DNA of 64,000 nucleotides from Eledone cirrhosa (GCA_964016885.1 OZ024742.1:157356001-157420000), one strand, 5' to 3'; positions 860-62,409 are shown, counted from the first letter of the stretch. A program made the numbers and translations. Notes: a model not told the origin generated them from the sequence alone.

Positions 860-1642
860 GAAACTCTAATAATTATAACTCAAACACACATACGCTAAAT
901 AAATCGAGAATACGAACTAGATCTAAACCAGTCATATGATTTGTACCCCTTGCTTCGGTCGTAGTTAAAACACCAATTGCTATACTATTCTTTAAATCTA
1001 TTGTCACCTCTTTCCCTACTCAACATAAATACCATTCCATTTTTAATAGACATACCATTAAATTCGCAAATATTACAACCAGTAACATGGCCAAAAACAA
1101 CGTCAAATTAAACGCCAAAATCCTAAAACCAAACCAACATAATGTTCATAATAATAGAGTTAACATTAATGATACTAAACCAAAATGTAATTGTAGAAAT
1201 AAAACTAATTGCCCTTTGCAAAATAATTGTTTACATAGTAATTTGGTTTTTGCACCGAAAAACTGATCACAAAGCATACAATTACATTGGATCAACCTCA
1301 TCCACATTTAAAGCTCGTTTTGCGAACCATAAATGCTCATTCTCGAACTCTAAGAGGAAATCATCCACGTCTTTATCACAGCTCATATGGCCTTTAAAAG
1401 AGAAGAATTTAAAATACAATATTCTTTGGACAAAACTTCGGAACTGTGGAATTTACCGCCACACTAGTATATCAAGTAACTGCCCGCTCTGTACAATGGA
1501 GACCCTGTTGATTATTAATAATTACGAGACCCTAATTAACAAAAGAATTGAATTATTCTCTAGTTGTCTCCATAAAGCTACGTCCACTTTTTTAGCCTCA
1601 CATAAAACGAGAAAGAAAGAAACAATTACACCAAACCAATAA
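860..1642 (+). pseudogene. Frameshifted Penelope-like element fragment (linker + GIY-YIG endonuclease)
   Basis: CNCRNKTNCPLQNNC (~1184-1230) in one frame, then YIGSTSSTFKARFANH and CPLCTME in the 1142..1642 ORF; homologous to the 55049-56551 ORF. Confidence 0.82.
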
Positions 1643-4013: not shown

Positions 4014-4470
4014 CTAATGGATACGATTTAAACTACCAGAACTTTTAGGTTTATAATAGAAGAAATAATTAGAAATGGCATGGGGGCAGGAAGAAAATAT
4101 CTCAGACTTTCTATTAAGCAAAACTTCCCTAGAGAAAACCATAGAGTGGGTCTCTAGGATACAGAGATTACAGAATTTAGTGTGTGTTGATAGGTTATTA
4201 GAGCGTGCTACTATACGCCAATTAAGGCTATATGGCATGCCTGCCTCTTTAAGATCCCAGATATGGTGTGCTAAAGAAGTAGAGTTCTTAAACTTAACAT
4301 GCTTAAAATTAGAGATATGAGAATTAAACCTAGTGTTAAAAGTATTAGATGTGGAGCCTATATATGTGCTATTAGAAGAATCAGTCTTAACTTCACAAGC
4401 ATAAACAATGTTCCTAGAGAGGCAGTGACCGTTTAAAGGGCAGTTAATACTTACTCTATAGTTACAATTC
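4014..4470 (-). pseudogene. PLE GIY-YIG endonuclease remnant
   Basis: Minus strand reads CPLNGHCLSRNIVYACEVK...YIGSTSNTFNTRFNSH...CNLCILE...SEIFSSCPH. Confidence 0.85.
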
Positions 4471-5481
4471 CTGGTGCTATTTACCGGCTGAATAAGTGAT
4501 GCATCACTTCTAGGGTTATTATAAGATAAGGTCTGCTCAGGTGGTAAGGCATTAAGGGATTTTTACTACCACACGCTGTTCATTAATATATGTCTGTGTA
4601 TCTCAACCGCGTAAATATTTATTAAGCATTTCCTTAGACTCTGTTTGATATTTGATATTAATGTTGTTATATCATATCATTTTTATGTAATCGTATTTTA
4701 GATTTTAATATATGTTATTTGAAGTATGGTTCTGTTATATTTTGTAATATCTTGTGATATTTTGGTAATATTAATGCCAATGTAAAACGTCTTGACCTCC
4801 GTTTATTTGTTACAATGGTATAGATTTTTTTTTTCAACACAATTTTTTCAACACTATTTAGTTCTATATGATTTTTTTCTTACCCTGTGTAAAACGTTAT
4901 ACTATTTGTTAACCTTGAATTATATATATGATGTAATTTTGTATATCTTTTGATGCCAATATATTATAATATTGTTATTATAATGTTATTATAATGTTTT
5001 TATATTGTTTATGCACACTGACAGGGAATTATATATTATATTTTATTTTTATTTGTATCTTTATTTTTATTTTTATCTTTATTATATGTAAACAATATAT
5101 ATATATATATTTAAAAACTTAATAAGTGTTAGTTTGTGTTTGTACTAATGTATATATGTATAGATATATATATATATACATATATTAAGCTTTTTATTAT
5201 CAGCATCTATTATATTATATTATATTCTATATCGTACTGTAATTCTCACATTATATTACCATTTGTGTTTCAAGTTTTCGCATTATGTAATATTTACAAT
5301 GTGCGTTCAACATGTTAACCACTTCCTTGCTATTTGGTCTATATCTATGTGTGTAACTGCTCACTCTTAATCTTAGCCTACTTTTGCTTGATATCCTTCC
5401 TAGGCTTTAATAGATGTATTCTCCATATTCTTCTGAGTTTTTGGCTTGTATTGGCCAATAGTGCTTCTTGTAGCTTTACTT

Positions 5482-17699: not shown

Positions 17700-19575
17700 G
17701 TTGTGTAGCGGAAAGTGTTGGTCGAGGGGTTTGTGGTTGTGGGCGCTTCTAAGCCCTAGATGTGTAGTGTTAATGGTGGTGGGGAATTCAAATCTGACAT
17801 TGTTTTATACTAAAAGCTAGGTTTAAAGTTATGGAACGAGTGTCGGTACCGTTGTTGGCGCGAGGGAAATGTCTCAGACTCTCTATTCAAGAGTTCTAGT
17901 TTCGAAAAGATTATAGTATGGGCCTCCAGAAGGCAGAGATTACACAATGTATACGGTGGTTTATATGATGAGGCCCTACCTACTACTTCCCATTGCAGTG
18001 TAAATGGTCTATTCCTAGATTTCAGAGAGAGTATGTGTAGCTACATAAAGAAGTGTAGCTGGCTAGATTGTGTTCCCTAAAGAGTGGAGGTGCGAGTTGT
18101 ATCTCGTCTTGAAGTTGTTCGAAGTAGATCTTATACATGTTTTAGAAGAGTTGTTTGCGTTGACGGTTCATGAGTAGATGATGTCTTTGGTTAAGCAATT
18201 ATTACCCAAGGGGCAAGTTCTATTAGTTCTACAGTTACATTTATTCCAGGTGTTAGCTTGCCGGTTCCTATGTTGTGAATAATTCTGGTTGCTAGGGGTA
18301 GCACTTGTATAATGATGCCTATCATTCGTATTGTTATTGATTTCATTAGTGCTATTATCATAATTACTATTATTACTACTATTGTTTACAGGTACTAAGT
18401 TTAATTCCTGTTGTGTTTTAATTAGTTGGAAATAGTTATTAATCTTCCTTTTATTACTACTAGCTATATGGTATGCTATGTTAGGTGTGGTGGAGTATGA
18501 TATTTTAATTGTATTTTTATTGATAAGTCTATGGTACTTGTGGCCGGTCGGGAAGTTTTTTCTAAGATTGAGAAGAAAGCCTTAGGCAAGTCAGTAGACG
18601 TTTAGTTTGAAAGGTGGATTGAAGAATGTATTAGTTCTTCTATTTTTGTTTATATTATTATTTTTTTTAGGTATCCATATCCCTGTTTAAATTATTATTG
18701 TGGTGTTTACTTTGGTGCGAGTTAAGTGTGGTATTAATCTTCGTCTTATAGTTATAGTGGCTAGTGTTTTTACTATTTTTCCTCATGGCCATATTATGAG
18801 AAATAATTTCTACTTTAGGCACAAGGCCAGCAAATACCCAGTGCATTACTGGTACTTTATTTTATCGACCCCGTAAGGGTGAAAGACAAAGTCAACCTCG
18901 GCGGGAGAAATAATATTGTAACTATGTGATTTTATAGGTAGGAATTCAATCTCATCCTCATGTCCTGATTTAGCTAAGGCCTCATTACAATATTGTGAAT
19001 TATTGTTAAATATAGTTTCATTATATGATGGTAATGGAGTTTAATATGGATTTAGGGTGGTTAGAGTTGGTGTTCACATAAATTAGTTTTTCGTTAGGTT
19101 TAAGATAGGGTGTCTATATTCTAGAGTCTAGGCTAAGGGTAGCGTCTAGGAAGTTGATATTTTTAGTGTTTTTATCTAAGGTGATACTTAAGTTGTAGTT
19201 TTTGAAAATTTTGTGTAAGTGTTTCTTAATTTTGCTATATTAAATTTGTTATAGTATATGAGAAGAAGCGCATCATCGCGGTATAAACCACCGTTGAGGT
19301 TGGGTAGGTTCTTATGGATTTCATTAAATAGGTATAGGCCCACCAAATCGGTGACCTGCTCTGAGTCACTAGATCCCATGGTTATGTCGAAGTTGTTATG
19401 CGTAACCTTGCGGGTCCATAATTGTTCTTCAAATGTGATTATGGTTTTTCGGGCCACAAGTATGACATCAATTTGGGATCTAGTCAGGTCACTATTGTTC
19501 ATGGCCATAATAAGAGCGTTATTTAATAGGATAGGGGAAATAGAGTTGTAGTAAGAATTGATATCAAATTGTGTT
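17700..19575 (-). mobile_element. Decayed Penelope-like element (RT core, linker, GIY-YIG)
   Basis: FDINSYYNSI, FDITMGSSDSEQVTDLVG, GGLYRDDALL in 19188..19715; downstream CNCRTNRTCPLGNNCLTKDIIYS*TV...[13 protein letters not shown]. Confidence 0.88.
18803..18905 (-). mobile_element. SINE fragment inserted in the PLE
   Basis: SINE core and tail; 10-bp duplication gagaaataat at 18798 and 18905. Confidence 0.8.
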
Positions 19576-26958: not shown

Positions 26959-27057
<99 letters not shown>

Positions 27058-27100
27058 AAAAGCGAAGTCGTTTCAGATTTTCAAGTCTTTTAATAATAAT

Positions 27101-27174
27101 GCTGTGATATATATTTCAGAGGCGACAGTGGTCACACTGTTCCGTGCGCCAGTGTCGCGAGATCGTCAGACAGC
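27101..27174 (-). ncRNA. Type I hammerhead, family C, diverged copy within an inverted fragment (27057-27228)
   Basis: Minus: GCUGU CUGACGA ...GCGACA...UGUCGC... GAA AUAUAUAU C^ ACAGC. Confidence 0.72.
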
Positions 27175-28499
27175 TTTTTACATAATAAGGTTATGTTTCG
27201 GAGGCAATCCAAGTTGAATCGACATGGCATATATATATATATATATATATATGCCATGTCGTACCCGGCGATGTCCGGGTGTAAGTCGACCTTTAGTCTG
27301 TTAGAATGTGTGAAAGTTACTTCCCGCGCATTACAGGTTCGAAACTTCGAACTTCAATGGAAAAAAATAGGTTAATAGACACAGGTGTGTAATTTATTAA
27401 TTGTAGTTACACAGTGTATCGTTGAAATTGTTCTCTGCACGACTGACGGAAGTGAAAATCACTTGATATTGAATGTTCAGTTAATTTAAAGCAGGGTGAA
27501 AATGTCGATTACTTTCAGGGGTTTTTTTTTTTTACAATTTTTGCGCTCACATGTGCAGAAGAAGAATTAAAAGGGCCTTTATCTTAACCGCGGCATAATG
27601 GCGAGTCTTTTGTGACAGTTTTCAAGAATATAGGACGTTCCTGTAAAAAATTGTCCCATGTGTAACTCTGCCTTGTTTTTTTGCGCAAAGTCGAGCCCTG
27701 CTTCAGTTTTATTAATTTTTTACATCAATGCGTGATCTCTGAAGTAGATTTGAGTAGCTAAAAACCTGTCCCGGTAAATTTGCTATAGGTGAAAAAAAGT
27801 TGATCAAAATTGTATCTAGGGTTATTGCCCTTTGCCATAGCCTCAAGCCTCGTCTGACGGGATGTTGGTGATTCCTCCGTCAGCGCTTGTTGGCGACGAA
27901 GGCGAACATCAGCAAGCCGTGTCGTACGTGATGTTGGTGACTCAACCGGCCGGGAAAGACGTCTATCAGCGAGTCGAGATTCGCGCTCAGCAGGTGTTTC
28001 CTAGAGAAAATTAATCAATTCTACTGGTTAGCTAAGCCAATGGCAGTGTCAATAGTAAATGAGAAAAGTCTAACATGAACAAAAGGGAATCAAGGTAAGA
28101 CAATAAATTTAATATAACTACGATTAGAATGTTGTAGTTGCTTAAAAGTGGTGACAGTTAGGATAAACGCAGTACTTGCTAGCATTAAGGGAGAATATTG
28201 CATAAAGGATTAATCAATTGTGAATGAACTCATACCTGAGAACGCCTAATTCGTTGTCTCAAAGCAGTAGCTGTACCTTTTTTGGAGGTAAGTCTTGAAC
28301 GTTTCCGTGTGGGCATAACGACGTGTAACGAAGCTAGCTGTTAGGTTAGAGAGAGGTGATTAAATACAGAGAGAGATGACACCAGATTCGTTAGCATGGT
28401 TACTGGTGAATGGGAAGGTTTGGAAATATGATTACAATAACTTACCGAATGTTCCCGTCTATAAATTGCACTTATAATAATTAAATTTAATCAAAAAAC

Positions 28500-28697: not shown

Positions 28698-29397
28698 CTA
28701 TTGGAAAAGAATACGAATTCATGACCAAGGTGTGACAAAATAGGCGTCTATACAGCGCTTGAAACAAACTTGTCCAAAACCCTAGGATTTTTCTCGTTAA
28801 GTATCCACCCAAAAGGAACCGTTTTTTAGTTACAAAAAATAACCAAAGTGTATAGTAGCTATATTTCTGACATATCATGCCAAAAAGAACAATATATTCA
28901 AAAAATGTTCTAAAGTACATTCAATCTCTCTTTTTGACCGATATCTTAATAAGCAAGTTATCGATTGTTTATTGGCTGTCAGTGTCTATCTGCATGCAGG
29001 TGTGCACGTGTGCGCAATTAATTACAAAATACGCTCATAACATTTAGTCGTAAGCAGAACAAAAAATGCCATTAGAGGTGGGCTAATAATGAAGACATAA
29101 ACTCTGGTGAACTTACGTTTAAACACCCGAAAAGTTACTCACTTCCTGTGCAAAAGACTGTATTATAAATTAAGTATTTTTTTAGAATCTTTTGTTTAAA
29201 AAAGGAAAACATTGGTACGACGTAAATTTTTTTATTTGTATTGTATGTGTACGACACAACTTGGTCAACGTATTATTTAGTAATTTTTTTTTCAAGAATC
29301 ATGATTATTTAAGACTGTTTGAAAATTTACTCACAGCTTTTAGGTTCACAAAAGACACCATTAGTATTTTCAGATGTTCAAGTCCTTTAATAATAAT

Positions 29398-29471
29398 GCT
29401 GTGATATATATTTCAATGACGACGCTGGCCACACTGTTCTGTGTGTGAGTGTCGTGACATCATCAGACAGC
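29398..29471 (-). ncRNA. Type I hammerhead, family C
   Basis: Reverse complement of the 31835-31908 motif. Confidence 0.78.
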
Positions 29472-30562
29472 TTGTTACATAATAATTGTTTACCCTAATA
29501 ATTAAGCTCCGATTAGTTGAGCGCTCTATGATGTAACCGATATGGTGGAGAAGAGAGGAACCAACCAAGAGCTACCCCGGAAATCCCCTCTACCATGGGC
29601 ATGAAAAACCCATGACACTGGACGGGCGTAATAGTATCTTTCGGCAGGATAAATACGCGGAAACAAAAAATAAGATAAACCCCTATTTTCCTGCACCAAA
29701 TCGCTTCTGAACGTCTATTCAATCTATACATGGACAGATGGACAATCATATGGATCATTTTACATATATGTACTCTGTGTTTTTGCATTTATTCACTATT
29801 GTCTCCGTTTTTTCTTTTCTTTTGTGTACTTTTTGTCTGTTTTTCTTTGACTCTGTTCCATGTGATGGAAAGTATGACCGTGTAGCGGATTGACTAATGC
29901 CTTGAACCATGTGGTTTGCCCTCCGTTATAAGGTCCGGCACTGCCGTTCAATATCTGTAACACTAGAATCCCTCCCAGAACAGCTTACTTAAACATCTCT
30001 CTCCATATTATTTACTCACTTCAATGTATATCTTTACTTAATCCGAATTATCACTTGAAAAACATTTTTGAATTCAGAATTTTTGAATTCATTATTGTTT
30101 AATTTATAATCTCTGATATTTAATTTAAGATTTTAACCTTTAATTTTAATTTTTGTTCCCAACTCTCACTCTTAACTTACTATGTAAAACCATAGTACCT
30201 AGAATTAAGTTTATTTTACCTTATGAGTTGATGGTCAGTCTTACTGTCAACGCTTAGTGAAAGGTAGTATTATGACCTATAAAAACTAACACCCTCCCAT
30301 CCCCTCTGGCTTTCGGCTGACTGCCACACTAGCGATGGGTAGTAGTAAATTTTGGCAAGGCATAGATGGGCCACTGACAGCGAATTTCGTTGAAATCTGC
30401 GGTGCTAATGGTCAACTTCCTTCGGACATGCGCTTGCGCACACCGGTGGGGGTGAATTGGTACTCACAAGGGAACGGATGAAAAACCCAAAAGCACGAAC
30501 TTCATCCGTTCCCATGTCGATTCAATTTGGATTACCTCGGAAATAACCTTATTATGTAACAA

Positions 30563-30636
30563 GCTGTCTGATGATGTCACGACACTCGCACACAGAACAG
30601 TGTGGCCAGTTTCGTCATTGAAATATATATCACAGC
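30563..30636 (+). ncRNA. Type I hammerhead, family C
   Basis: GCUGU CUGAUGA [long helix II] GAA AUAUAUAU C^ ACAGC. Confidence 0.8.
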
Positions 30637-31834
30637 ATTATTATTAAAGGACTTGAACGTCTGAAACTACTTCGCTTTTATTATTCGATATTTACTCCGT
30701 CACTCCTATGTGGAAAAAGTACGTTGAGTGCTTGAATTGAATTGCATCACTGTTTACCCTAATAATTAAGCTTCGATTAGTTGAGCGCTCTATGATGTAA
30801 CCGATATGGTGGAGTAGAGAGGAACCAACCAAGAGCTACCCCGGAAATCCCCTCTATCATGGGGATGAAAAACCCATGACACTGGACGGGCGTAACAGTA
30901 TCTTTCGGCAGGATAAATACGCGGAAACAAAAAATAAGATAAACCCCTATTTTCCTGCACCAAATCGCTTCTGAACAGAGGCCCCCTCAATTCAATCTAT
31001 ACATGGACAGATGGACAATCATATGGATCATTTTACATATATGTACTCTGTGTTTTTGCATTTATTCACTATTGTCTCCGTTTTTTCTTTTCTTTTGTGT
31101 ACATTTTGTCTGTTTTTCTTTGACTCTGTTCCATTGATGGAAAGTATGACCGTGTAGTGGATTGACTAATGCCTTGAACCATGTGGTTTGCCCTCCGTTA
31201 TAAGGTCCGGCACTGCCGTTCAATATCTGTAACACTAGAATCCCTCCCAGAACAGCTTACTTAAACATCTCTCTCCATATTATTTACTCACTTCAATGTA
31301 TATCTTTACTTAATCCGAATTATCACTTGAAACAAATTTTTTAATTCAGAATTTTTGAATTCTTTATTGTTTAATTTATAATCTCTGATATTTGATTTAG
31401 GATTTTAACCTTTAATTTTAATTTTTATTCCCAACTCTCACTCTTAACTTACTATGTAAAACCATAGTACCTAGAATTAAGTTTATTTTACCTTATGAGT
31501 TGATGGTCAGTCTTACTGTCAACGCTTAGTGAAAGGTAGTATTATGACCTATAAAAACTAACACCCTCCCATCCCCTCTGGCTTTCGGCTGACTGCCACA
31601 CTAGCGATGGGTAGCAGTAAATTTTGGCAAGGCATAGGTGGGCCACTGACAGCGAATTTCGTTGAAATCTGCGGTGCTAATGGTCAACTTCCTTCGGACA
31701 TGCGCTTGCGCAGACCGGTGGGGGTGAATTGGTACTCACAAGGGAACGGATGAAAAACCCAAAAGCACGAACTTCATCCGTTCCCATGTCGATTCAATTT
31801 GGATTGCCTCGGAAACAACCTTATTATATAACAA

Positions 31835-31908
31835 GCTGTCTGATGATGTCACGACACTCACACGCAGAACAGTGTGGCCAGTGTCGTCATTGAAATATAT
31901 ATCACAGC
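31835..31908 (+). ncRNA. Type I hammerhead, family C
   Basis: Helix I GCUGU/ACAGC; helix II ACGACACU/AGUGUCGU; palindromic helix III AUAUAUAU; AUC cleavage triplet. Confidence 0.82.
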
Positions 31909-32034
31909 ATTATTATTAAAGGACTTGAACATCTGAAACTACTTCGCTTTTACTTATTCGATATTTACTCCGTCACTCATATGTGGATAAAGTACGTTGA
32001 GTGCTTGAATTGAATTGCATCAATATTTACCCTA

Positions 32035-32093
<59 letters not shown>

Positions 32094-32229: not shown

Positions 32230-32290
<61 letters not shown>

Positions 32291-32906
32291 TAAAAGGAAT
32301 TCCAACTTTGTCTGATTTACTCGTTTTATTTACAACCCTTTAAAATGTATAATGGTATTAGAATGAAATAGTATGGTAGAATATTAAATGTTAAGTGTTA
32401 ATTGAACAAGTATGTTCATGCTTTCGCAATCTTCATGTTAATATTGTGTGGTGACAGTCAAGTTTGCAATTTTTAACTGTAATGAGATGAGTAAATGTTG
32501 TGCCTTATATACAGTGAAAAGTGGCTACAGAATGCTAAATCTTGCAAACTGTATTTCGACCATTCGGTGTGTAGTTACACTGGATTACTAAAGATGATTG
32601 GTTTAGGCGTCACGGTTGGTTGAGCATGTCTAACGACTACTATTTGACCCTATTCAAACCATCAGTTGTTTTGCTATATATATATATATCACAGAAACAA
32701 AAGAATCAGTGTTGCGACGAATGGAATTTATTGGACATATTACAATCGTTTCACTGGCGACCATCGCGAGGCACGATCGATGTGATGATCGATCCTGCCT
32801 CTGAAATTCGTAAGGTCCTCAGATACGTCTTGATTCTACGAAGCTCTATCAGAACATCGAATGCTGAAACGGTCTACCGCATACGGACGTTTAAGCATCT
32901 AACACT

Positions 32907-33098: not shown

Positions 33099-34046
33099 CT
33101 AGCAGTAAAGCCCGGCGTTGCTCGGGGTCGCTCAGTAGCTGTGTTAAAGTTTCAATGTTAAGTTTCTTTATTGGCTTAAAAACTGTAGTGTCTACTGTGC
33201 AGACTTGCATATGGTGTTTTTGATTAATATTCCCTCAACCAACAATATGCCTTATGAAGTTAAGAAAACATAACGATAACCCGAATGTTATAACAAGAGA
33301 GGATGCTGGGGATAAAAACTACACTGGTTATTTATTAACAAAGATCGAAAATGTAAACACTGCAACGCAGAGAAAAACATTAGCGTAACCAAATTATCAG
33401 TTATGTCTGTCTGCACGCCTATATCACCTCTCTGCACGACTGTCTGTCTGTACACGTATATCACCTCTATGCACGACTGTCTGTCTGCACACGTATATCA
33501 CCTCTATGCACGACTGTCTGTCTGCACGCCTAACGAAATTTACAGATACATATATTTTAAATAAACTTATATAATTTTTGCTTTTTTTTACGAAATATTT
33601 GCTTGTTTAACGTAGTCTTTAAATAGACTTGTTTTCAAGTAAAAATATTGTTTTAAAATGCTTTTCAATGGAAATGAAGCAACACGGAAGCTTAGTGTTC
33701 GAACTGATGAATTTTGCAGGTCAATATTTTGCTGGCTCGACAACTGTTCGTGTATTGTGTTAATGTCATTTTAAACGCTGAGAAAGCCAGCGTAATTTTT
33801 TACGTAAGACGCTCAATGTAAACAGAACAAAGGGAAATAACTGATAACTTACGCTCAAAAATCGATACATTATATTCGATTTCGTCACATAGGGTGGGTC
33901 AATTTGAAATTTTTTTTTCCGATCTCTTCGCTAGGGCTCAATGTACAAGTATAGCAATTTCGGTGCAATTCCGTCAGAGATTCTAAGAGGAGATGTGTGC
34001 CAAAAATCGATAGACAGACAGACAACCACAGTTTTATATATATAGA
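33099..34046 (-). mobile_element. Non-autonomous Helitron, copy 1
   Basis: Minus strand starts TC (tctatatatataaaac), ends with hairpin cccgagcaacgccggg then CTAG, inserted between A and T; internal ~33-bp tandem repeats at ~33405-33530. Confidence 0.85.
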
Positions 34047-37000
34047 TTACATCATAACTTACACACGCACATACACCTATATATATTATTACATCTTAAC
34101 TTACACACACATACACCAATATATACTATTACATCTTAAGTTACACACACACATACACCTATATATATTATTACGTCTTAACTTACACACACACATACAC
34201 CTATATATGTTATTACATCTTAACTTGCACACACACATACACCTATATATATTATTACATCTTAACTTACACACACATACACCTATATATACTATTACAT
34301 CTTAACTTACACACACACATACACCTATATATATTATTACATCTTAACTTACACACACATACACCTATATATATTATTATATCTTAACTTACACACACAC
34401 ATACACCTATATATACTATTACATCGTAACTTACACACACATGCACCTATATATACTATTACATCTTAACTTACACACACATACACCTATATATATACTA
34501 TTACATCTTAACTTACACACACACACATACACCTATATATATTATTACATCTTAACTTACACACACACATACACCTATATGTATTATTACATCTTAACTT
34601 ACACACACATACACCTATATATATTATTACATCTTAACTTACACACACACATACACCTATATATACTATTACATCTTAACTTACACACACATGCACCTAT
34701 ATATACTATTACATCTTAACTTACACACGCATACACCTATATATACTATTACATCTTAACTTACACACACATACACCTATATATACTATTACATCTTAAC
34801 TTACACACGCATACACCTATATATACTATTGCATCTTAACTTACACACGCATACACCTATATATACTATTACATCTTAACTTACACACGCATACACCTAT
34901 ATATACTATTACATCTTAACTTACACACACATGCACCTATATATACTATTACATCTTAACTTACACACGCATACACCTATATATACTATTACATCTTAAC
35001 TTACACACGCATACACCTATATATACTATTACATCTTAACTTACACACACACACATACACCTATATATATTATTACATCTTAACTTACACACACATACAC
35101 CTATATATATTATTACATCTTAACTTACACACACATACACCTATATATACTATTAAATCTTAACTTACACACACACATACACCTATATATAGTATTACAT
35201 CTTAACTTACACACACACATACACATATATATATTATTACATCTTAACTTACACACACATACACCTATATATACTATTACATCTTAACTTACACACACAC
35301 ACATACACCTATATATATTATTACATCTTAACTTACACACACATAAACCTATATATACTATTACATCTTAACTTACACACACACACATACACCTATATAT
35401 ATTATTACATCTTAACTTACACACACACATACACCTATATATAGTATTACATCTTAACTTACACACACACATACACCTATATATATTATTACATCTTAAC
35501 TTACACACACATACACCTATATATACTATTACATCTTAACTTACACACACACACATACACCTATATATATTATTACATCTTAACTTACACACACATACAC
35601 CTATATATACTATTAAATCTTAACTTACACACACACATACACCTATATATAGTATTACATCTTAACTTACACACACACATACACCTATATATATTATTAC
35701 ATCTTAACTTACACACACACATACACCTATATATAGTATTACATCTTAACTTACACACACACACATACACCTATATATATTATTACATCTTAACTTACAC
35801 ACACACATACACCTATATATAGTATTACATCTTAACTTACACACACACATACACCTATATATATTATTACATCTTAACTTACACACACATACACCTATAT
35901 ATACTATTACATCTTAACTTACACACACACACATACACCTATATATATTATTACATCTTAACTTACACACACACATACTCCTACATATATTATTACATCT
36001 TAACTTACACACACATACACCTATATATACTATTACATCTTAACTTTCACACACACATACACCTATATATATTATTACATCTTAACTTACACACACATAC
36101 ACCTATATATACTATTACATCTTAACTTACACACACACATACACCTATATATATTATTACATCTTAACTTACACACACATACACCTATATATACTATTAA
36201 ATCTTAACTTACACACACATACACCTATATATACTATTACATCTTAACTTACACACACACATACACCTATATATATTATTACATCTTAACTTACACACAC
36301 ATACACCTATATATAGTATTACATCTTAACTTACACACACACATACACCTATATATATTATTACATCTTAACTTACACACACACATACACCTATATATAT
36401 TATTACATCTTAACTTACACACACATACACCTATATATACTATTACATCTTAACTTACACACACATACACCTATATATACTATTACATCTTAACTTACAC
36501 ACACACATACACCTATATATATTATTACATCTTAACTTACACACACATACACCTATATATACTATTACATCTTAACTTACACACACACATACACCTATAT
36601 ATATTATTACATCTTAACTTACACACACATACACCTATATATACTATTATATCTTAACTTACACACACACATTCACCTATATATATTATTACATCTTAAC
36701 TTACACACACACACACACCTATATATACTATCACATCTTAACTTACACACACATACACCTATATATACTATTACATCTTAACATACACACACACATACAC
36801 CTATATATACTATTACATCTTAACTTACACACACACATACACCTATATATACTATTACATCTTAACTTACACACACACATACACCTATATATACTATTAC
36901 ATCTTAACTTACACACACACATACACCTATATATATTATTACATCTTAACTTACACACACACATACACCTATATATATTATTACATCTTAACTTACACAC

Positions 37001-37182
37001 ACATACACCTATATATACTATTACATCTTAACTTACACACACACATACACCTATATATACTATTACGTCTTCACTTACACACACACATACACCTATATAT
37101 ATTATTACATCTTAACTTACACACACATACACCTATATATACTATTACATCTTAACTTACACACATACACCTATATATATTA
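34047..37182. repeat. Minisatellite, ~40-44-bp unit, ~3.1 kb
   Basis: Unit ttacatcttaactta(ca)n-tacacctatatata(t/c/ta-g)ta repeated about 75 times. Confidence 0.97.
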
Positions 37183-38059
37183 CTAGCAGTAAAGCCCGGC
37201 GTTGCTCGGGGTCGCTCAGTAGCTGTGTTAAAGTTACAATGTTAAGTTTCTTTCTTGGCTTAAAAACTGTAGTGTCTACTGTGCAGACTTGCATGTGGTG
37301 TTTTTGATTAATATTCCCTCAACCAACAATATGCCTTATGAAGTTAAGAAAACATAACGATAACCCGAATGTTATAACAAAAGAGGATGCTGGGGATAGA
37401 AACTGCACTGGTTATTTATTAACAAAGATCGAAAATGTAAACACTGCAACGCAGAGAAAAACATTAGCGTAACCAAATTATCATTTATCTCTGTCTGCAC
37501 GCCTATATCACCTCTCTGCACGACTGTCTGTCTGCACGCCTATATCACCTCTCTGCACGACTGTCTGTCTGCACGACTGTCTGTCTGCACGCCTAACGAC
37601 GAAATATTTGCTTGTTTTACGTAGTCTTTAAATAGACTTGTTTTCAAGTAAAAATATTGTTTTAAAATGCTTTTAAATGGAAATGAAGCAAAACGGAAGC
37701 TTAGTGTTCGAACTGATGAATTTTGCAGGTCAATATTTTGCTGGCTCGACAACTGTCTGTTCGTGTATTGTGTTAATGTCATTTTAAACGCTGAGAAAGC
37801 CAGCGTAATTTTTTACGTAAGACGCTCAATGTAAACAGAACAAAGGGAAATAACTGATAACTTACGCTCAAAAATCGATACATTATATTCGATTTCGTCA
37901 CATAGGTGGGTCAATTTGAAATTTTTTTTTTCCGATGTCTTCGCTAGTGCACAATGTACAAGTATAGCAATTTCGGTGCAATTCCGTGAGAGATTCTAAG
38001 AGGAGATGTGTGCCGAAAATCGATAGACAGACAGACAACCACAGTTTTATATATATAGA
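37183..38059 (-). mobile_element. Non-autonomous Helitron, copy 2
   Basis: Highly similar to 33099-34046 with the same termini and internal indels. Confidence 0.85.
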
Positions 38060-44889: not shown

Positions 44890-47325
<2,436 letters not shown>

Positions 47326-47559
47326 TAAGTATGCATGTATACGTACATACATATATGTATACAGACGTACAGTAGCATGCACATATATATATATATATAC
47401 ATATATACATATGCATACAGGTACACATACATATATGCACGTATCAGTTTAGCGGCGCTAACGTCGCTTTGTTCGTTTGTAAACAAACTGAACAGCCTGA
47501 ATTTATGCCATACGGTGTTAAGGCAACCACGTCACCTTTTTGTTCAACACTGACACAGG

Positions 47560-47604
47560 AACGATGTACTAGTTTCAAGCTTGTTAGCTATCATCAGCAC
47601 CGTT
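47560..47604 (-). ncRNA. Type I minimal hammerhead, family E
   Basis: Minus: AACGGUG CUGAUGA U AGCU AACA AGCU U GAA ACUAGU A^ CAUCGUU. Confidence 0.85.
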
Positions 47605-48025
47605 TACCCATCTGCCAGATAGTTGAACGTTCGAAAGTATATACTTTCCTTATGAAAATTAACGGCTGAGCAGCCTAATTTGCATATTGAGTGAGTTAAA
47701 TCGGTCAGGCATACCGAAAACGATAAATTGAAACAAAATGAAAACGAAATTTCATTTCTCACTCTTAGTATGGCACTTACTTAAATGTAAGTATGCATGT
47801 ATACGTACATACATATATGTATACAGACGTACAGTAGCATGCACATATATATATATATATACATATCTATATACATATGCATACAGGTACACATACATAT
47901 ATGCACGTATCAGTTTAGCGGCGCTAACGTCGCTTTGTTCGTTTGTAAACAAACTGAACAGCCTGAATTTATGCCATACGGTGTTAAGGCAACCACGTCA
48001 CCTTTTTGTTCAACACTGACACAGG

Positions 48026-48070
48026 AACGATGTACTAGTTTCAAGCTTGTTAGCTATCATCAGCACCGTT
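48026..48070 (-). ncRNA. Type I minimal hammerhead, family E
   Basis: Identical to 47560-47604. Confidence 0.85.
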
Positions 48071-48490
48071 TACCCATCTGCCAGATAGTTGAACGTTCGA
48101 AAGTATATACTTTCCTTATGAAATTAACGGCTGAGCAGCCTAATTTGCATATTGAGTGAGTTAAATCGGTCAGGCATACCGAAAACGATAAATTGAAACA
48201 AAATGAAAACGAAATTTCATTTCTCACTCTTAGTATGGCACTTACTTAAATGTAAGTATGCATGTATACGTACATACATATATGTATACAGACGTACAGT
48301 AGCATGCACATATATATATATATATACATATATATATACATATGCATACAGGTACACATACATATATGCACGTATCAGTTTAGCGGCGCTAACGTCGCTT
48401 TGTTCGTTTGTAAACAAACTGAACAGCCTGAATTTATGCCATACGGTGTTAAGGCAACCACGTCACCTTTTTGTTCAACACTGACACAGG

Positions 48491-48535
48491 AACGATGTAC
48501 TAGTTTCAAGCTTGTTAGCTATCATCAGCAACGTT
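48491..48535 (-). ncRNA. Type I minimal hammerhead, family E
   Basis: Same motif with one substitution in helix I. Confidence 0.82.
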
Positions 48536-48790
48536 TACCCATCTGCCAGATAGTTGAACGTTCGAAAGTATATACTTTCCTTATGAAAATTAACGGCTGA
48601 GCAGCCTAATTTGCATATTGAGTGAGTTAAATCGGTCAGGCATACCGAAAACGATAAATTGAAACAAAATGAAAACGAAATTTCATTTCTCACTCTTAGT
48701 ATGGCACTTACTTAAATGTAAGTATGCATGTATACGTACATACATATATGTATACAGACGTACAGTAGCATGCACATATATATATATATA

Positions 48791-55048: not shown

Positions 55049-56549
55049 TTAATTAGGTTTATAATATTTAAATGTTTTTTTTAGTTTATGATTACACGAT
55101 ATAATTAATTCCTGTCGTTTATTTAATAGGTTATCCTTAGATTTCATTATTTCAAATAGTTCTTGGGAACATAATCTACATTCATTTCTATTATTTTGAT
55201 AAGGGGTGGCTCTTTTGAGCACACTCCAGGTCAAATCATATTCTATATTCTTATTTTTATAACTATTGATTTTTTCTGCTAGAGATGTTGTATTAGCCAG
55301 TGCGGCATTTTTAAAACTATGTTTGTGGGTATTAAACCTTGTCTTAAAATTGTTAGAAGTAGCTCCTATATATGAGCAAATAGAATCTTTAGTTTTAACA
55401 TTACATTTATAAACTATGTTGTTAACAAGACAATTTCCTTTTAATGGGCAGTTTGCTTTGTTTCTACAGTTACAACCTTTCGTTAATTCTGTATTTGAGG
55501 AGATATTATGGTTAGTTTGATGTATTGGTGGTATACTTATGGTTTTCTTACATTTATATGCATTATAGGCACTTATATTTTGTTTTATGTTATTTGTTGT
55601 TGAGTATGAGAATTTAACTGTAGACCTATTTAAGATTTGATGGTATTTGTGGTTTGGCGGGAAGTTTTTCTCTAGGATATAAACAAATTTTTTAGCAATA
55701 TTATCCTTAATTTGTAAATTAAATGGAGCATTATACCAAGTAACCCGTCTATTACGGTTTCTATGTTGTTTATTATTTTTATTATTTGTATAGGTTGTAT
55801 CGTGATGTTTACTAGGAGGATTAATGTTAATGATCTCACCACAACCATTTTTAGTTATATTTGTAGATTTAGGTGTTTTATCTTTTTTATTAGGAGTTTT
55901 ATTATTAATATTTATTAGAGTTGTATGATGAGTAGTTTTTTGAGAGTTACTATATTTTATATTAGAAGATTTGGTATTTTGGGGTATAGTGTGGGTGGCA
56001 TTTAGGTGTGTACTTTTCATTTGGTGTTTGTTGGTAATATTAGGTTGTATGTTTTTAGTATTTTTGGTAGAAGGTATATATTCTAATCTATTTTTGTGGC
56101 CACTTCTATCTAGAGCTTCGTTATAGAAGGTCGCATTTTTATCAAATACATCTTGGTTAGAAGAAAGGTTAGAAATTCTAAGTGATATATTATATGCAAG
56201 GTTTTTAAGGATAGATTTAGGGTGATTAGATTGTGAGTGTATGTAATGTAAGTTTTGGTTGGGTTTATGGTAAGGTTGGTAGATACCCGTAGCTAAGTCT
56301 AAAGTTATATCTAGGAAATTTACTACTTTACTTGTTTTTTCAAAAGTAATATGAAGACTATAATAGTCTTTAAGGAAAGTTCTAATATGCTTTTTGTTTT
56401 TTTCTATTTCTGAAAGGCTAAGGTTGTTGGAAAGAAGAAGACAGCCATCACGATATAAACCACCTTTAAGGTGGGTAAAGGAGGCATTTATGTTGAAAAG
56501 GAGAAAGAGGCCCACAAGATCAGTAATTTGGGCGGAATCGCTTGAACCC

Positions 56550-61200: not shown

Positions 61201-62409
61201 ATCTTAACTATTACATGCAAGGTATGTAGTGTGGATGATTACTTGATGCGAAATCATGTGATGTAATATATATTGTTATACTTAATGAGGGGCATATTGC
61301 GTGTATAGACACACTCACGAGTTATATTTCACTTCAGAAGTTTAAGTCGTCTACGACTGCGTGTACATGTTTGTATCACTGTGTGTGATTATGTTTGTGT
61401 GCTATTATATCCACGAGCTTCTGTATTTAAAATGTGTGTATGTGTGTATGTGTGTCTGTATATGTAGGTCATTAAGACATATTTTTCCTCCCAGTTCTTT
61501 GAGCATGTGTTCTTTTCTTTCTTTATTTTCTATTCTCACTCTCGTCCCACACTAGGAAGTTGTTATTCATTTTATTATTCCTATTAGATTTATTTATGTG
61601 TATTCTTTTATGTTCCTCTGCTGCTAACTCGTGGGGATGGTGTTATTCCATCCATCCTTTCTATTGAGTTGTGTCTTACATTCAGTTATATTTGTAGCAT
61701 AATCAATCTATCTGACCATCGCATCTATTCGGTGTGTAACTACAACGTTTGTTTAAATGACGTTTAGTAAGCCAGCATTTTCCAGTTTGCCATCTTGGTA
61801 GAACGTCTCATTTTTATTCTCGTCTTCGATTTGTGGTCATAGCTCCTTCATTCTTACTCTTATACGACGATTCGCTTCATATACATATATTTGGGCCATA
61901 ATTCTACGTTGTCATATTCTGCATCAAATGCAGATTTGACCAATATAGTTTCTATTGTTTTGTGAACTAACTTTCGGTGAGTGCTGCGTTGGTACATTCT
62001 TATATTTGTTTTATTATATTTGTTTTCTTATATTTGTTTTTTTCCGGACATCGCTTCGGTGTGTGTGAGAGTGTGTGTGTACCGACCCACACTAACTCTA
62101 CAGGTTTAATACTGTATTGATGTGAGTATATATATGTATATATTTTTTTCTTTGACCTCGACCCGGTGTATGTGGGTGTGGAATGTAAGTGTACCCACTC
62201 ACATTAACTGTGACTGACTGTATCCCTACAGATTTAATTGATGTCCAGCGTCTTTTGCAGCGATAGAAATCTGAAAACTTTTAGACCTTAACTGAAGTTA
62301 ATAGCAGTCGCCGTGTCTCTGACTGGTGTGTCTTCATATGAGGGAATGAAATCTGTGAGAGAACATCGTTTTTTTCTCCCTCATATCAAGAATTTGAAGA
62401 CAATTCATT

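What the first reader, a model, noticed from the sequence alone, without database searches (positions are those of the whole stretch)
29367..32035. Large (~1.27 kb) non-coding ribozyme unit in a tandem dimer with an inverted leader
Seen: two tandem copies with predicted cleavage sites at 30631 and 31903 (1272-nt monomer), no convincing ORF, a perfect 13-bp hairpin (gggaacggatgaa/ttcatccgttccc) ~50 nt upstream of each HHR, and a 120-bp inverted copy of the HHR region in front. Inference: a non-autonomous PLE derivative or an unusually long retrozyme; animal non-LTR retrozymes are generally only a few hundred nt.
Basis: partly seen in the sequence, partly recalled or inferred. Interest (0 to 1): 0.75.

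Follow-up and report, generated by a model that had tools for sequence, protein, structure and literature searches.

The report
Kilobase hammerhead retrozyme with Penelope ends
This is one copy of an abundant non-coding jumping repeat in an animal genome whose 1.27-kb unit carries a predicted self-cutting RNA and was likely copied into place by a Penelope-type reverse transcriptase, possibly from a circular RNA; the kind is known, but this family and its relatives (1.1-2.9 kb) are longer than the animal examples in the papers read.

Summary
Observation confirmed. The locus is one two-armed insertion: an inverted 123-nt arm joined to 2.55 kb of direct sequence holding one complete 1,272-nt hammerhead-to-hammerhead unit. 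The unit is dispersed (2,534 candidates) and has no ORF. In 28 insertions, 26 long ends sit +134 nt past the predicted cut and 18 short ends near +56, almost all at microsatellites; 16 of 20 two-armed copies pair one long with one short end. This is Penelope anatomy, with a tail about twice the usual length. Related non-coding units measure 1.08-2.9 kb. Reverse transcription crossed the cut site in 26 of 44 arms with no pile-up, so templates were circles or uncut multimers, not cut linear monomers. No autonomous partner was found; one Neptune-like family is a weak lead. One tail base is discordant within 15 of 23 insertions, unexplained. Cleavage and expression are untested; the active fold costs 3.2 kcal/mol. 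The scan noted the same two-armed design before in shorter families on other DNA of this genome. New variant of a known kind.

The parts
29363..29485 (-). Inverted arm (5'-truncated copy, 3' end facing outward), with hammerhead core 29466-29403; ends +40 past the cut, 16 nt short of the usual short end, and not at a microsatellite
29487..32037 (+). Direct arm: 5'-truncated first unit, complete second unit and 134-nt 3' extension
30632..31903 (+). Cut-to-cut monomer, 1,272 nt, 39% GC, no ORF (longest ATG ORF 48 aa)
30470..30513 (+). 13-bp hairpin before hammerhead 1; stem kept in subfamilies A-D with changes on both sides in 2 of 13 pairs
30563..30636 (+). Type I hammerhead 1 (stem I GCUGU/ACAGC, CUGAUGA, long stem II, GAAA, palindromic AUAUAUAU helix III); predicted cut after 30631
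31742..31785 (+). 13-bp hairpin before hammerhead 2
31835..31908 (+). Type I hammerhead 2; predicted cut after 31903
31960..32037 (+). Penelope-type tail (75-78 nt) between the short (+56) and long (+131 to +134) 3' ends; inferred reverse-transcription start sites
   Evidence: PMC11167929
30770..30800 (+). Conserved GCUC/GAGC hairpin plus UGUAA just past the long end (also 29506-29536); shared with the distant E group; candidate RT-binding element (inference)
   Evidence: 388 matches, 0 in the reversed control
32025..32025 (+). Hypervariable tail base (A here, G at the matching 30752)
32035..32090 (+). (TA)n tract at the long end (target)
27052..27227 (-). Separate insertion: 3' fragment of sister subfamily B (87%), hammerhead 27169-27106, short end at (TA)n

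Best explanation
The locus is one insertion of a dispersed, non-coding 1.27-kb repeat with a predicted type I hammerhead, likely mobilised in trans by a Penelope-like (probably Neptune-type) reverse transcriptase/GIY-YIG endonuclease, and most likely copied from a cut-and-religated circular monomer. Shown: thousands of candidate copies, no ORF, two fixed 3' ends 75-78 nt apart, 5' truncation, two arms in opposite orientation with one long and one short end, microsatellite targets, seamless passage through the predicted cut site. Inferred: a tandem locus is transcribed; two hammerheads pair through the palindromic helix III and cut out the monomer, which is ligated; the enzyme nicks (TA)n DNA on both strands and starts cDNA inside the RNA at +134 on one strand and +56 on the other; the two cDNAs are joined at their truncated ends. 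Class-level reading about 90%; the circle step about 50% against 40% for an uncut linear multimer.
For: Dispersal. Ends: 26 long ends at +134 (24 at a microsatellite) and 18 short ends at an apparent +47 to +64 (17 at a microsatellite) in 28 insertions; 16 of 20 two-armed copies are long+short, none long+long or short+short. This matches the two internal RT starts that define the tail in PMC11167929 and the anatomy in PMC8557442. Core CUGANGA/GAAA/UH is kept in A, B, C, D, F' and E with position 7 free (U, C, A); E has a different but complementary stem I and a different palindrome. 90.3% of 870 cells pair, against 31-53% for slid partners; 15 cells change on both sides, 0 of 500 shuffles as many. 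RT crossed the cut in 26 of 44 arms, none starts within 12 nt of it, stopping rate 18/44 before and 8/26 after (p = 0.45). Pieces of one insertion share 151 non-consensus alleles against 14 discordant common ones; tandem and inverted pieces are equally diverged (163/7,630 and 148/6,753, p = 0.82; between insertions 3.6%). Arrays of more than two units exist (this locus; four units in L284).
Against: No partner found: no shared pLTR in 45 GIY-YIG loci out of 10,596 candidates. In all three A copies the fold with an open core costs 3.2 kcal/mol more than the minimum; position 10.1-11.1 pairs in only 8 of 27 sequences (U-U in A and B), and helix III needs a dimer. The number of pairs changing on both sides (4) is not above shuffles (410 of 500), and RNAalifold defaults did not recover the hammerhead. 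The circular monomer folds no better than shuffles (z -1.3, 15 shuffles). The sibling piece was the nearest neighbour in only 14 of 32 tests. In vitro, the anole enzyme used uncut RNA and did not need cleavage (PMC11167929), and 8 of 9 Xenopus dimers did not cleave (Li et al. 2026). The tail base that differs within 15 of 23 insertions would argue against one circle if it comes from editing. The A loci were the best full-length hits, so they are biased to long copies.
Confidence: 0.8

Rival explanations
1. Same element and same enzyme, but the template is an uncut linear transcript of a tandem source; the hammerhead cuts late or rarely and no circle is needed.
For: No stop at the cut site fits uncut RNA as well as circles. 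PMC11167929: hammerhead mutants do not impair insertion in vitro. Active fold disfavoured by 3.2 kcal/mol. Per-unit discordance at tail +122 is what independent A-to-I editing of separate units would give.
Against: Tandem pieces are no more diverged than inverted arms, so source units would have to be identical. The catalytic core is kept across six families. No general A>G excess in A (21 A>G against 25 T>C discordant changes).
Confidence: 0.4
2. The unit is the long 3' UTR/pseudo-LTR of an autonomous Penelope-like element whose ORF-bearing copies were not sampled.
For: Autonomous families here have UTRs up to about 1.3 kb; only 45 of 150 scored GIY-YIG hits were read; one direct fusion of an ORF piece to a unit (L010).
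Against: In tandem copies of A, B, C, D, E, E2 and E3 the tail runs straight into non-coding unit sequence and on to the next hammerhead. None of the 50 stretches read around the post-tail motif showed an RT ORF in register; the one same-strand ORF (L273) lies behind a 3' end and a (TA)n tract.
Confidence: 0.08
3. Local tandem or segmental duplication with a chance hammerhead-like motif.
For: Rfam finds no hammerhead.
Against: Thousands of dispersed candidates, fixed ends, conserved core with compensating stems.
Confidence: 0.01

Closest known systems
Metazoan non-LTR retrozymes (Cervera and de la Pena 2020, PMC7229834: passages and Discussion read; Li, Clavereau and Pollet 2026, bioRxiv 10.64898/2026.07.22.740005: parts 1-3 of 5 read, supplements closed)
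   Same: Non-coding tandem units, each with a type I hammerhead; GC under 45%; proposed mobilisation by Penelope-like elements, perhaps through circles.
   Different: Here copies are dispersed two-armed insertions with Penelope ends, not long arrays; no RNA evidence.
Canonical EN+ Penelope-like elements, Neptune/Nematis type (Craig et al. 2021, PMC8557442: passages read; Cervera and de la Pena 2014, PMC4209133: part 1 of 4 read)
   Same: Partial tandems, adjacent inverted 5'-truncated copy, tail at one end only, (TA)n targets, minimal hammerhead with long helix II and palindromic helix III.
   Different: No ORF; tail 75-78 nt against 30-40 bp; no shared pseudo-LTR with any autonomous family sampled.
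Poseidon PAc of the green anole (Frangieh et al. 2024, PMC11167929: parts 1-2 of 4 read)
   Same: Two internal RT start sites downstream of the hammerhead cut define the tail; both target strands cut and extended; AT-rich target.
   Different: PAc is coding and its ORF starts inside the hammerhead; here the starts are inferred from genomic ends only.
MRC1 and other non-autonomous Chlamys elements (PMC8557442 passage; bioRxiv 10.1101/2022.06.16.496473 passage)
   Same: Non-autonomous Penelope-like elements with pseudo-LTRs and head-to-tail copies.
   Different: Algal, generally similar to autonomous partners at the 3' end, and in a clade mostly without canonical hammerheads.

Membership tests
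Type I hammerhead (PLE minimal form) | Core CUGANGA, GAAA, UH | tested here: met
   invariant across family representatives, position 7 varies
Type I hammerhead (PLE minimal form) | Stems I and II | tested here: met
   stem I 97.8% of cells paired, stem II 81.9%; E has a different complementary stem I
Type I hammerhead (PLE minimal form) | Paired base of stem II (10.1-11.1) | tested here: inconclusive
   pairs in 8 of 27 (G-U); U-U in A and B; open-core fold +3.2 kcal/mol
Type I hammerhead (PLE minimal form) | Short palindromic helix III allowing a dimer | tested here: met
   8-bp self-duplex, -3.2 kcal/mol; E keeps another palindrome, -7.2
Type I hammerhead (PLE minimal form) | Match to an Rfam hammerhead model | tested here: not met
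   not a defining feature of the fold, but no model scored
Type I hammerhead (PLE minimal form) | Self-cleavage | not testable with these tools
   needs a transcript assay
Non-autonomous Penelope-like element | No RT/EN ORF | tested here: met
   longest ATG ORF 46-86 aa in 8 of 8 units
Non-autonomous Penelope-like element | Partial tandem, 5' truncation, inverted adjacent arm | tested here: met
   20 of 28 insertions two-armed
Non-autonomous Penelope-like element | Tail at one end only | tested here: met
   16 of 16 classifiable two-armed copies long+short; length 75-78 nt, longer than published
Non-autonomous Penelope-like element | Microsatellite target bias | tested here: met
   41 of 44 long or short ends
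Non-autonomous Penelope-like element | 3' end shared with an autonomous partner | tested here: inconclusive
   none in 45 loci of about 9 families; family F1 best but weak; most of 10,596 candidates unread
Non-LTR retrozyme | At least two consecutive units each with a type I hammerhead, non-coding, GC under 45% | tested here: met
Non-LTR retrozyme | Small monomer (up to 972 bp in the surveys read) | tested here: not met
Non-LTR retrozyme | Expressed as linear and circular monomers | not testable with these tools
   no RNA run was listed

The most novel reading that the evidence does not exclude
A clade of kilobase (1.1-2.9 kb) ribozyme-made circular RNAs in an animal, kept non-coding through 30% or more divergence, that recruit a Penelope-type RT through a conserved hairpin just past the start site and are copied by rolling-circle reverse transcription from both ends of a DNA break, with one modified base that the RT misreads anew on each pass.
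Probability: 0.2. Interest if true: 0.72.

Novelty: new variant of a known kind. Interest (0 to 1): 0.45.

Why it matters
Animal retrozymes are described as small, and one survey's search could not see periods above 1,000 nt, so a long class may have been missed. The copies give genomic tests of two open points in Penelope biology: the strict long/short polarity of the two arms fits two-site internal initiation on both target strands, and the lack of a stop at the cut site excludes cut linear monomers as the main template. The family supplies a protein-free substrate (hammerhead, tail, post-tail hairpin) for mapping what a Penelope RT recognises, and a natural test of whether hammerheads 1.3-2.9 kb apart can make circles. 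The class itself is known, cleavage and expression are unshown, and this scan has seen the same design in shorter families, so the advance is moderate.

Tried and rejected
Rfam: nothing at gathering score in the window or in L274, L200, L108; only AT-repeat miRNA noise at relaxed E-value. RNA evidence: no RNA holder listed; four runs of unknown kind laid as contigs showed more depth at the 3' end and loose ends that led to subfamilies C and D, nothing on expression. Partner search: 45 GIY-YIG loci, no shared sequence except an independent insertion in L080; tail against 45 downstream regions, only L091's non-coding element scored (z 3.2-3.6 for A and B); older subfamilies C, D, F' and group E followed upstream, all non-coding; a visual likeness of family F5's ends was not supported; F9 has its own hammerhead; the F4 ORF in L273 lies behind a (TA)n tract. 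ADAR scars, a lead from earlier notes: none in A (private shared 2 A>G against 2 T>C; discordant 21 against 25); B private shared 7 against 2, p = 0.09. An apparent pile-up of 5' ends just past the cut in the length-biased sample vanished in the motif-selected sample. One search had a one-base register error in the tail and its distances were discarded; replace it. Default RNAalifold gave a non-hammerhead consensus. A bacterial promoter scan was uninformative. Literature searches listed no paper on this family or on kilobase animal retrozymes; subscription journals, Repbase and Dfam were not searchable, and the supplements of Li et al. 2026 could not be seen and may hold longer units.

Full report
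1. What is at the locus. Type I hammerhead motifs lie at 30568-30631 and 31840-31903 on the + strand, 1,272 nt apart, and at 29466-29403 on the - strand. The direct copies are 96.8% identical. The direct arm begins 120 nt into a unit (29487) and ends 134 nt past the second predicted cut (32037) at a (TA)n tract. The inverted arm (29363-29485) covers the hammerhead and 40 nt past the cut. The 13-bp hairpin is real (z -5.9). No frame exceeds 91 aa and four frames scanned had no Pfam match. A diverged copy lies at 27052-27227. Rfam does not score the motif.

2. It is a dispersed family. The window lies in a 3.0-Gb, microsatellite-rich animal genome (cephalopod-like is my inference; no call names it). 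The unit has 2,534 first-look candidates; 40 scored gave 96 matches at 91-100%. The 27-kb copy belongs to sister subfamily B (1,239 candidates, about 80% over the whole unit). Older subfamilies C and D (3,257 candidates with a D query, which may include other subfamilies) and a more distant F' (1,202 candidates) share the 3' region. Group E (1,077 candidates) shares only hammerhead layout, tail motifs (z 2.8-4.0 against A, B and D; no signal against F') and a hairpin past the long end (388 matches, 0 in the reversed control); whole-unit BLASTN shows no A-E match. Unit lengths from natural tandems: A 1,272; B 1,312 and 1,322; C 1,390; D about 1,080; E2 1,903; E3 1,964; E 2,802-2,905. The longest ATG ORF is 46-86 aa in 8 of 8 units, and the conserved 5' block has indels of 7 and 14 nt.

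3. The ends are those of Penelope-like elements. In 28 insertions of A (30 loci, 2 duplicates dropped; chosen as best full-length hits) 26 long ends lie at +134 (the query stopped there; ends were counted only if they did not continue into the next unit, and the TA run blurs +131 to +134) and 18 short ends at an apparent +47 to +64, mostly after TTATTC at +56; 41 of these 44 abut a microsatellite; 9 further ends were broken or interrupted. Twenty insertions are two-armed; 16 have a long end on one arm and a short end on the other, four have a long and a broken end (this locus is one), none has two of the same. B and D end at the same two sites. Craig et al. 2021 (PMC8557442, passages) describe partial tandems, an adjacent inverted truncated copy, a 30-40 bp tail at one end and (TA)n bias. 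Frangieh et al. 2024 (PMC11167929, parts 1-2) show that the tail is the stretch between two internal RT start sites and that both target strands are cut and extended. The 'inverted leader' is therefore the second arm, and the tail here is about twice the published length.

4. The ribozyme. On 27 sequences of A-D the named structure pairs in 90.3% of 870 cells against 31-53% when slid; 15 cells change on both sides (0 of 500 shuffles reach that), but the number of such pairs (4 of 33) is not above shuffles, and relatedness inflates these controls. The stronger sign is between families: the core is unchanged, position 7 is U, C or A, and E has another complementary stem I and another palindrome in helix III. 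Against activity: the base of stem II is U-U in A and B, the open-core fold costs 3.2 kcal/mol in all three A copies, and helix III forms only as a dimer duplex. Cervera and de la Pena 2014 (PMC4209133, part 1) describe such minimal dimeric forms with low activity in vitro.

5. What was the template? I took arms that cover the post-tail motif from the first 100 of 388 pattern matches (A/B types; 48 rows, 3 duplicate loci and 1 repeated row dropped, 2 rows re-scored as crossing because a later insertion split them). Of 44 arms, 18 start between +13 and +134, 26 cross the cut, none starts within 12 nt of it; the stopping rate is 18/44 before and 8/26 in the next 138 nt (p = 0.45). Cut linear monomers are thus not the main template. 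Pieces within one insertion share 112 common, 17 rare and 22 private alleles; 14 of 311 differences are common alleles; tandem and inverted pieces differ equally (2.1% and 2.2%), less than between insertions (3.6%), though the sibling was nearest in only 14 of 32 tests. Units were probably identical at insertion, as a circle predicts, but a young uniform tandem transcript would look the same. The circular monomer is not unusually stable (z -1.3); only the hairpin-hammerhead window is (z -2.9). I put the circle at 50% and the uncut multimer at 40%.

6. An unexplained site. Tail position +122 (G at 30752, A at 32025) differs between internal and terminal copies in 11 of 19 A and 4 of 4 B insertions (G/G 8, G/A 10, A/G 5, A/A 0), against 335 of 14,650 comparisons overall. 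Both bases occur in A, B and D. There is no general A>G excess in A. Editing of separate units, a misread modified base, or a local DNA hot spot remain open.

7. The partner. The genome has 10,596 GIY-YIG candidates. Forty-five loci of about nine families, several with a CxxxxCxxC linker like Neptune/Nematis (named from PMC8557442, not placed on a tree), share no pseudo-LTR with the unit. Family F1 (938-aa ORF in L086; RVT_1 and GIY-YIG) is a weak lead: its cut-to-end distance is 141 nt against 132-136, it aligns in register with z 2.9 to F', 1.9 to B and D and 0.6 to A (not significant over 50 comparisons), and one of 28 A insertions (L010) is fused in the same sense to a 524-nt F1 ORF piece at a short microhomology, which a later deletion could also explain. 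I give F1 about 25%.

8. Comparison and verdict. Seven literature searches listed no description of this family. A sequence look-up in the scan's notes found nothing; notes on other DNA of this genome describe the same two-armed design in 310-467-nt families. New variant of a known kind; interest 0.45.

Noticed in passing
L199, L200, L202 (G000 C6:34351000-34360900, C3:316672000-316681900, C1:199194500-199204400); L274, L275: Group E: young non-coding hammerhead units of 2.8-2.9 kb and 1.9-2.0 kb with Penelope ends, holding two or three copies of an internal GC-rich structured block; no Rfam match. Longer than the unit reported here.
   Followed up: partly
window 30752 and 32025 (tail +122): G/A base that differs between pieces of one insertion in 15 of 23 cases and is polymorphic in three subfamilies.
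   Followed up: partly
L010:3350-3870: Direct same-sense fusion of a 524-nt piece of the F1 Neptune-like ORF to the truncated 5' end of a unit; possible RT template switch.
   Followed up: partly
window about 32290-32600 (-): 3' UTR and hammerhead of autonomous family F5 (ORF ends KPKLNEQ), next to the same microsatellite region (matched by eye).
   Followed up: no
L086/L091/L095 (F1), L064/L102 (F3), L088 (F4): Autonomous families whose hammerheads seem to carry variant cores (U3-A8 type in F1 and F3, read by eye).
   Followed up: no
L284 (G000 C1:130879000-130888000): Four-unit tandem of subfamily B with 1,321-1,322-nt spacing, units 97.6-98.9% identical; a candidate source locus.
   Followed up: partly
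L087:6700 and 7159: Another non-coding hammerhead tandem with a 459-nt unit and the same stem I sequence.
   Followed up: no
L014, L017, L020, L025, L028, L029, L080, L246, L311: A roughly 190-nt SINE-like repeat inserts repeatedly just past the cut site, in the ATTATTATT stretch, with a short duplication.
   Followed up: no
unit positions -165 to -187 from the cut (window about 31716-31738): Six of 26 crossing arms start in this G-rich stretch just 5' of the 13-bp hairpin; possible RT pause at RNA structure.
   Followed up: no
window 940-1594, 4047-4487, 17813-19188, 45230-46921, 55055-56350, 61630-61890: Relics of other Penelope-like ORFs in the window.
   Followed up: no
window 34035-37185 and 47325-48790: A 40/42-bp minisatellite of 3.1 kb with strong GC skew and a 465-bp near-perfect tandem.
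   Followed up: no
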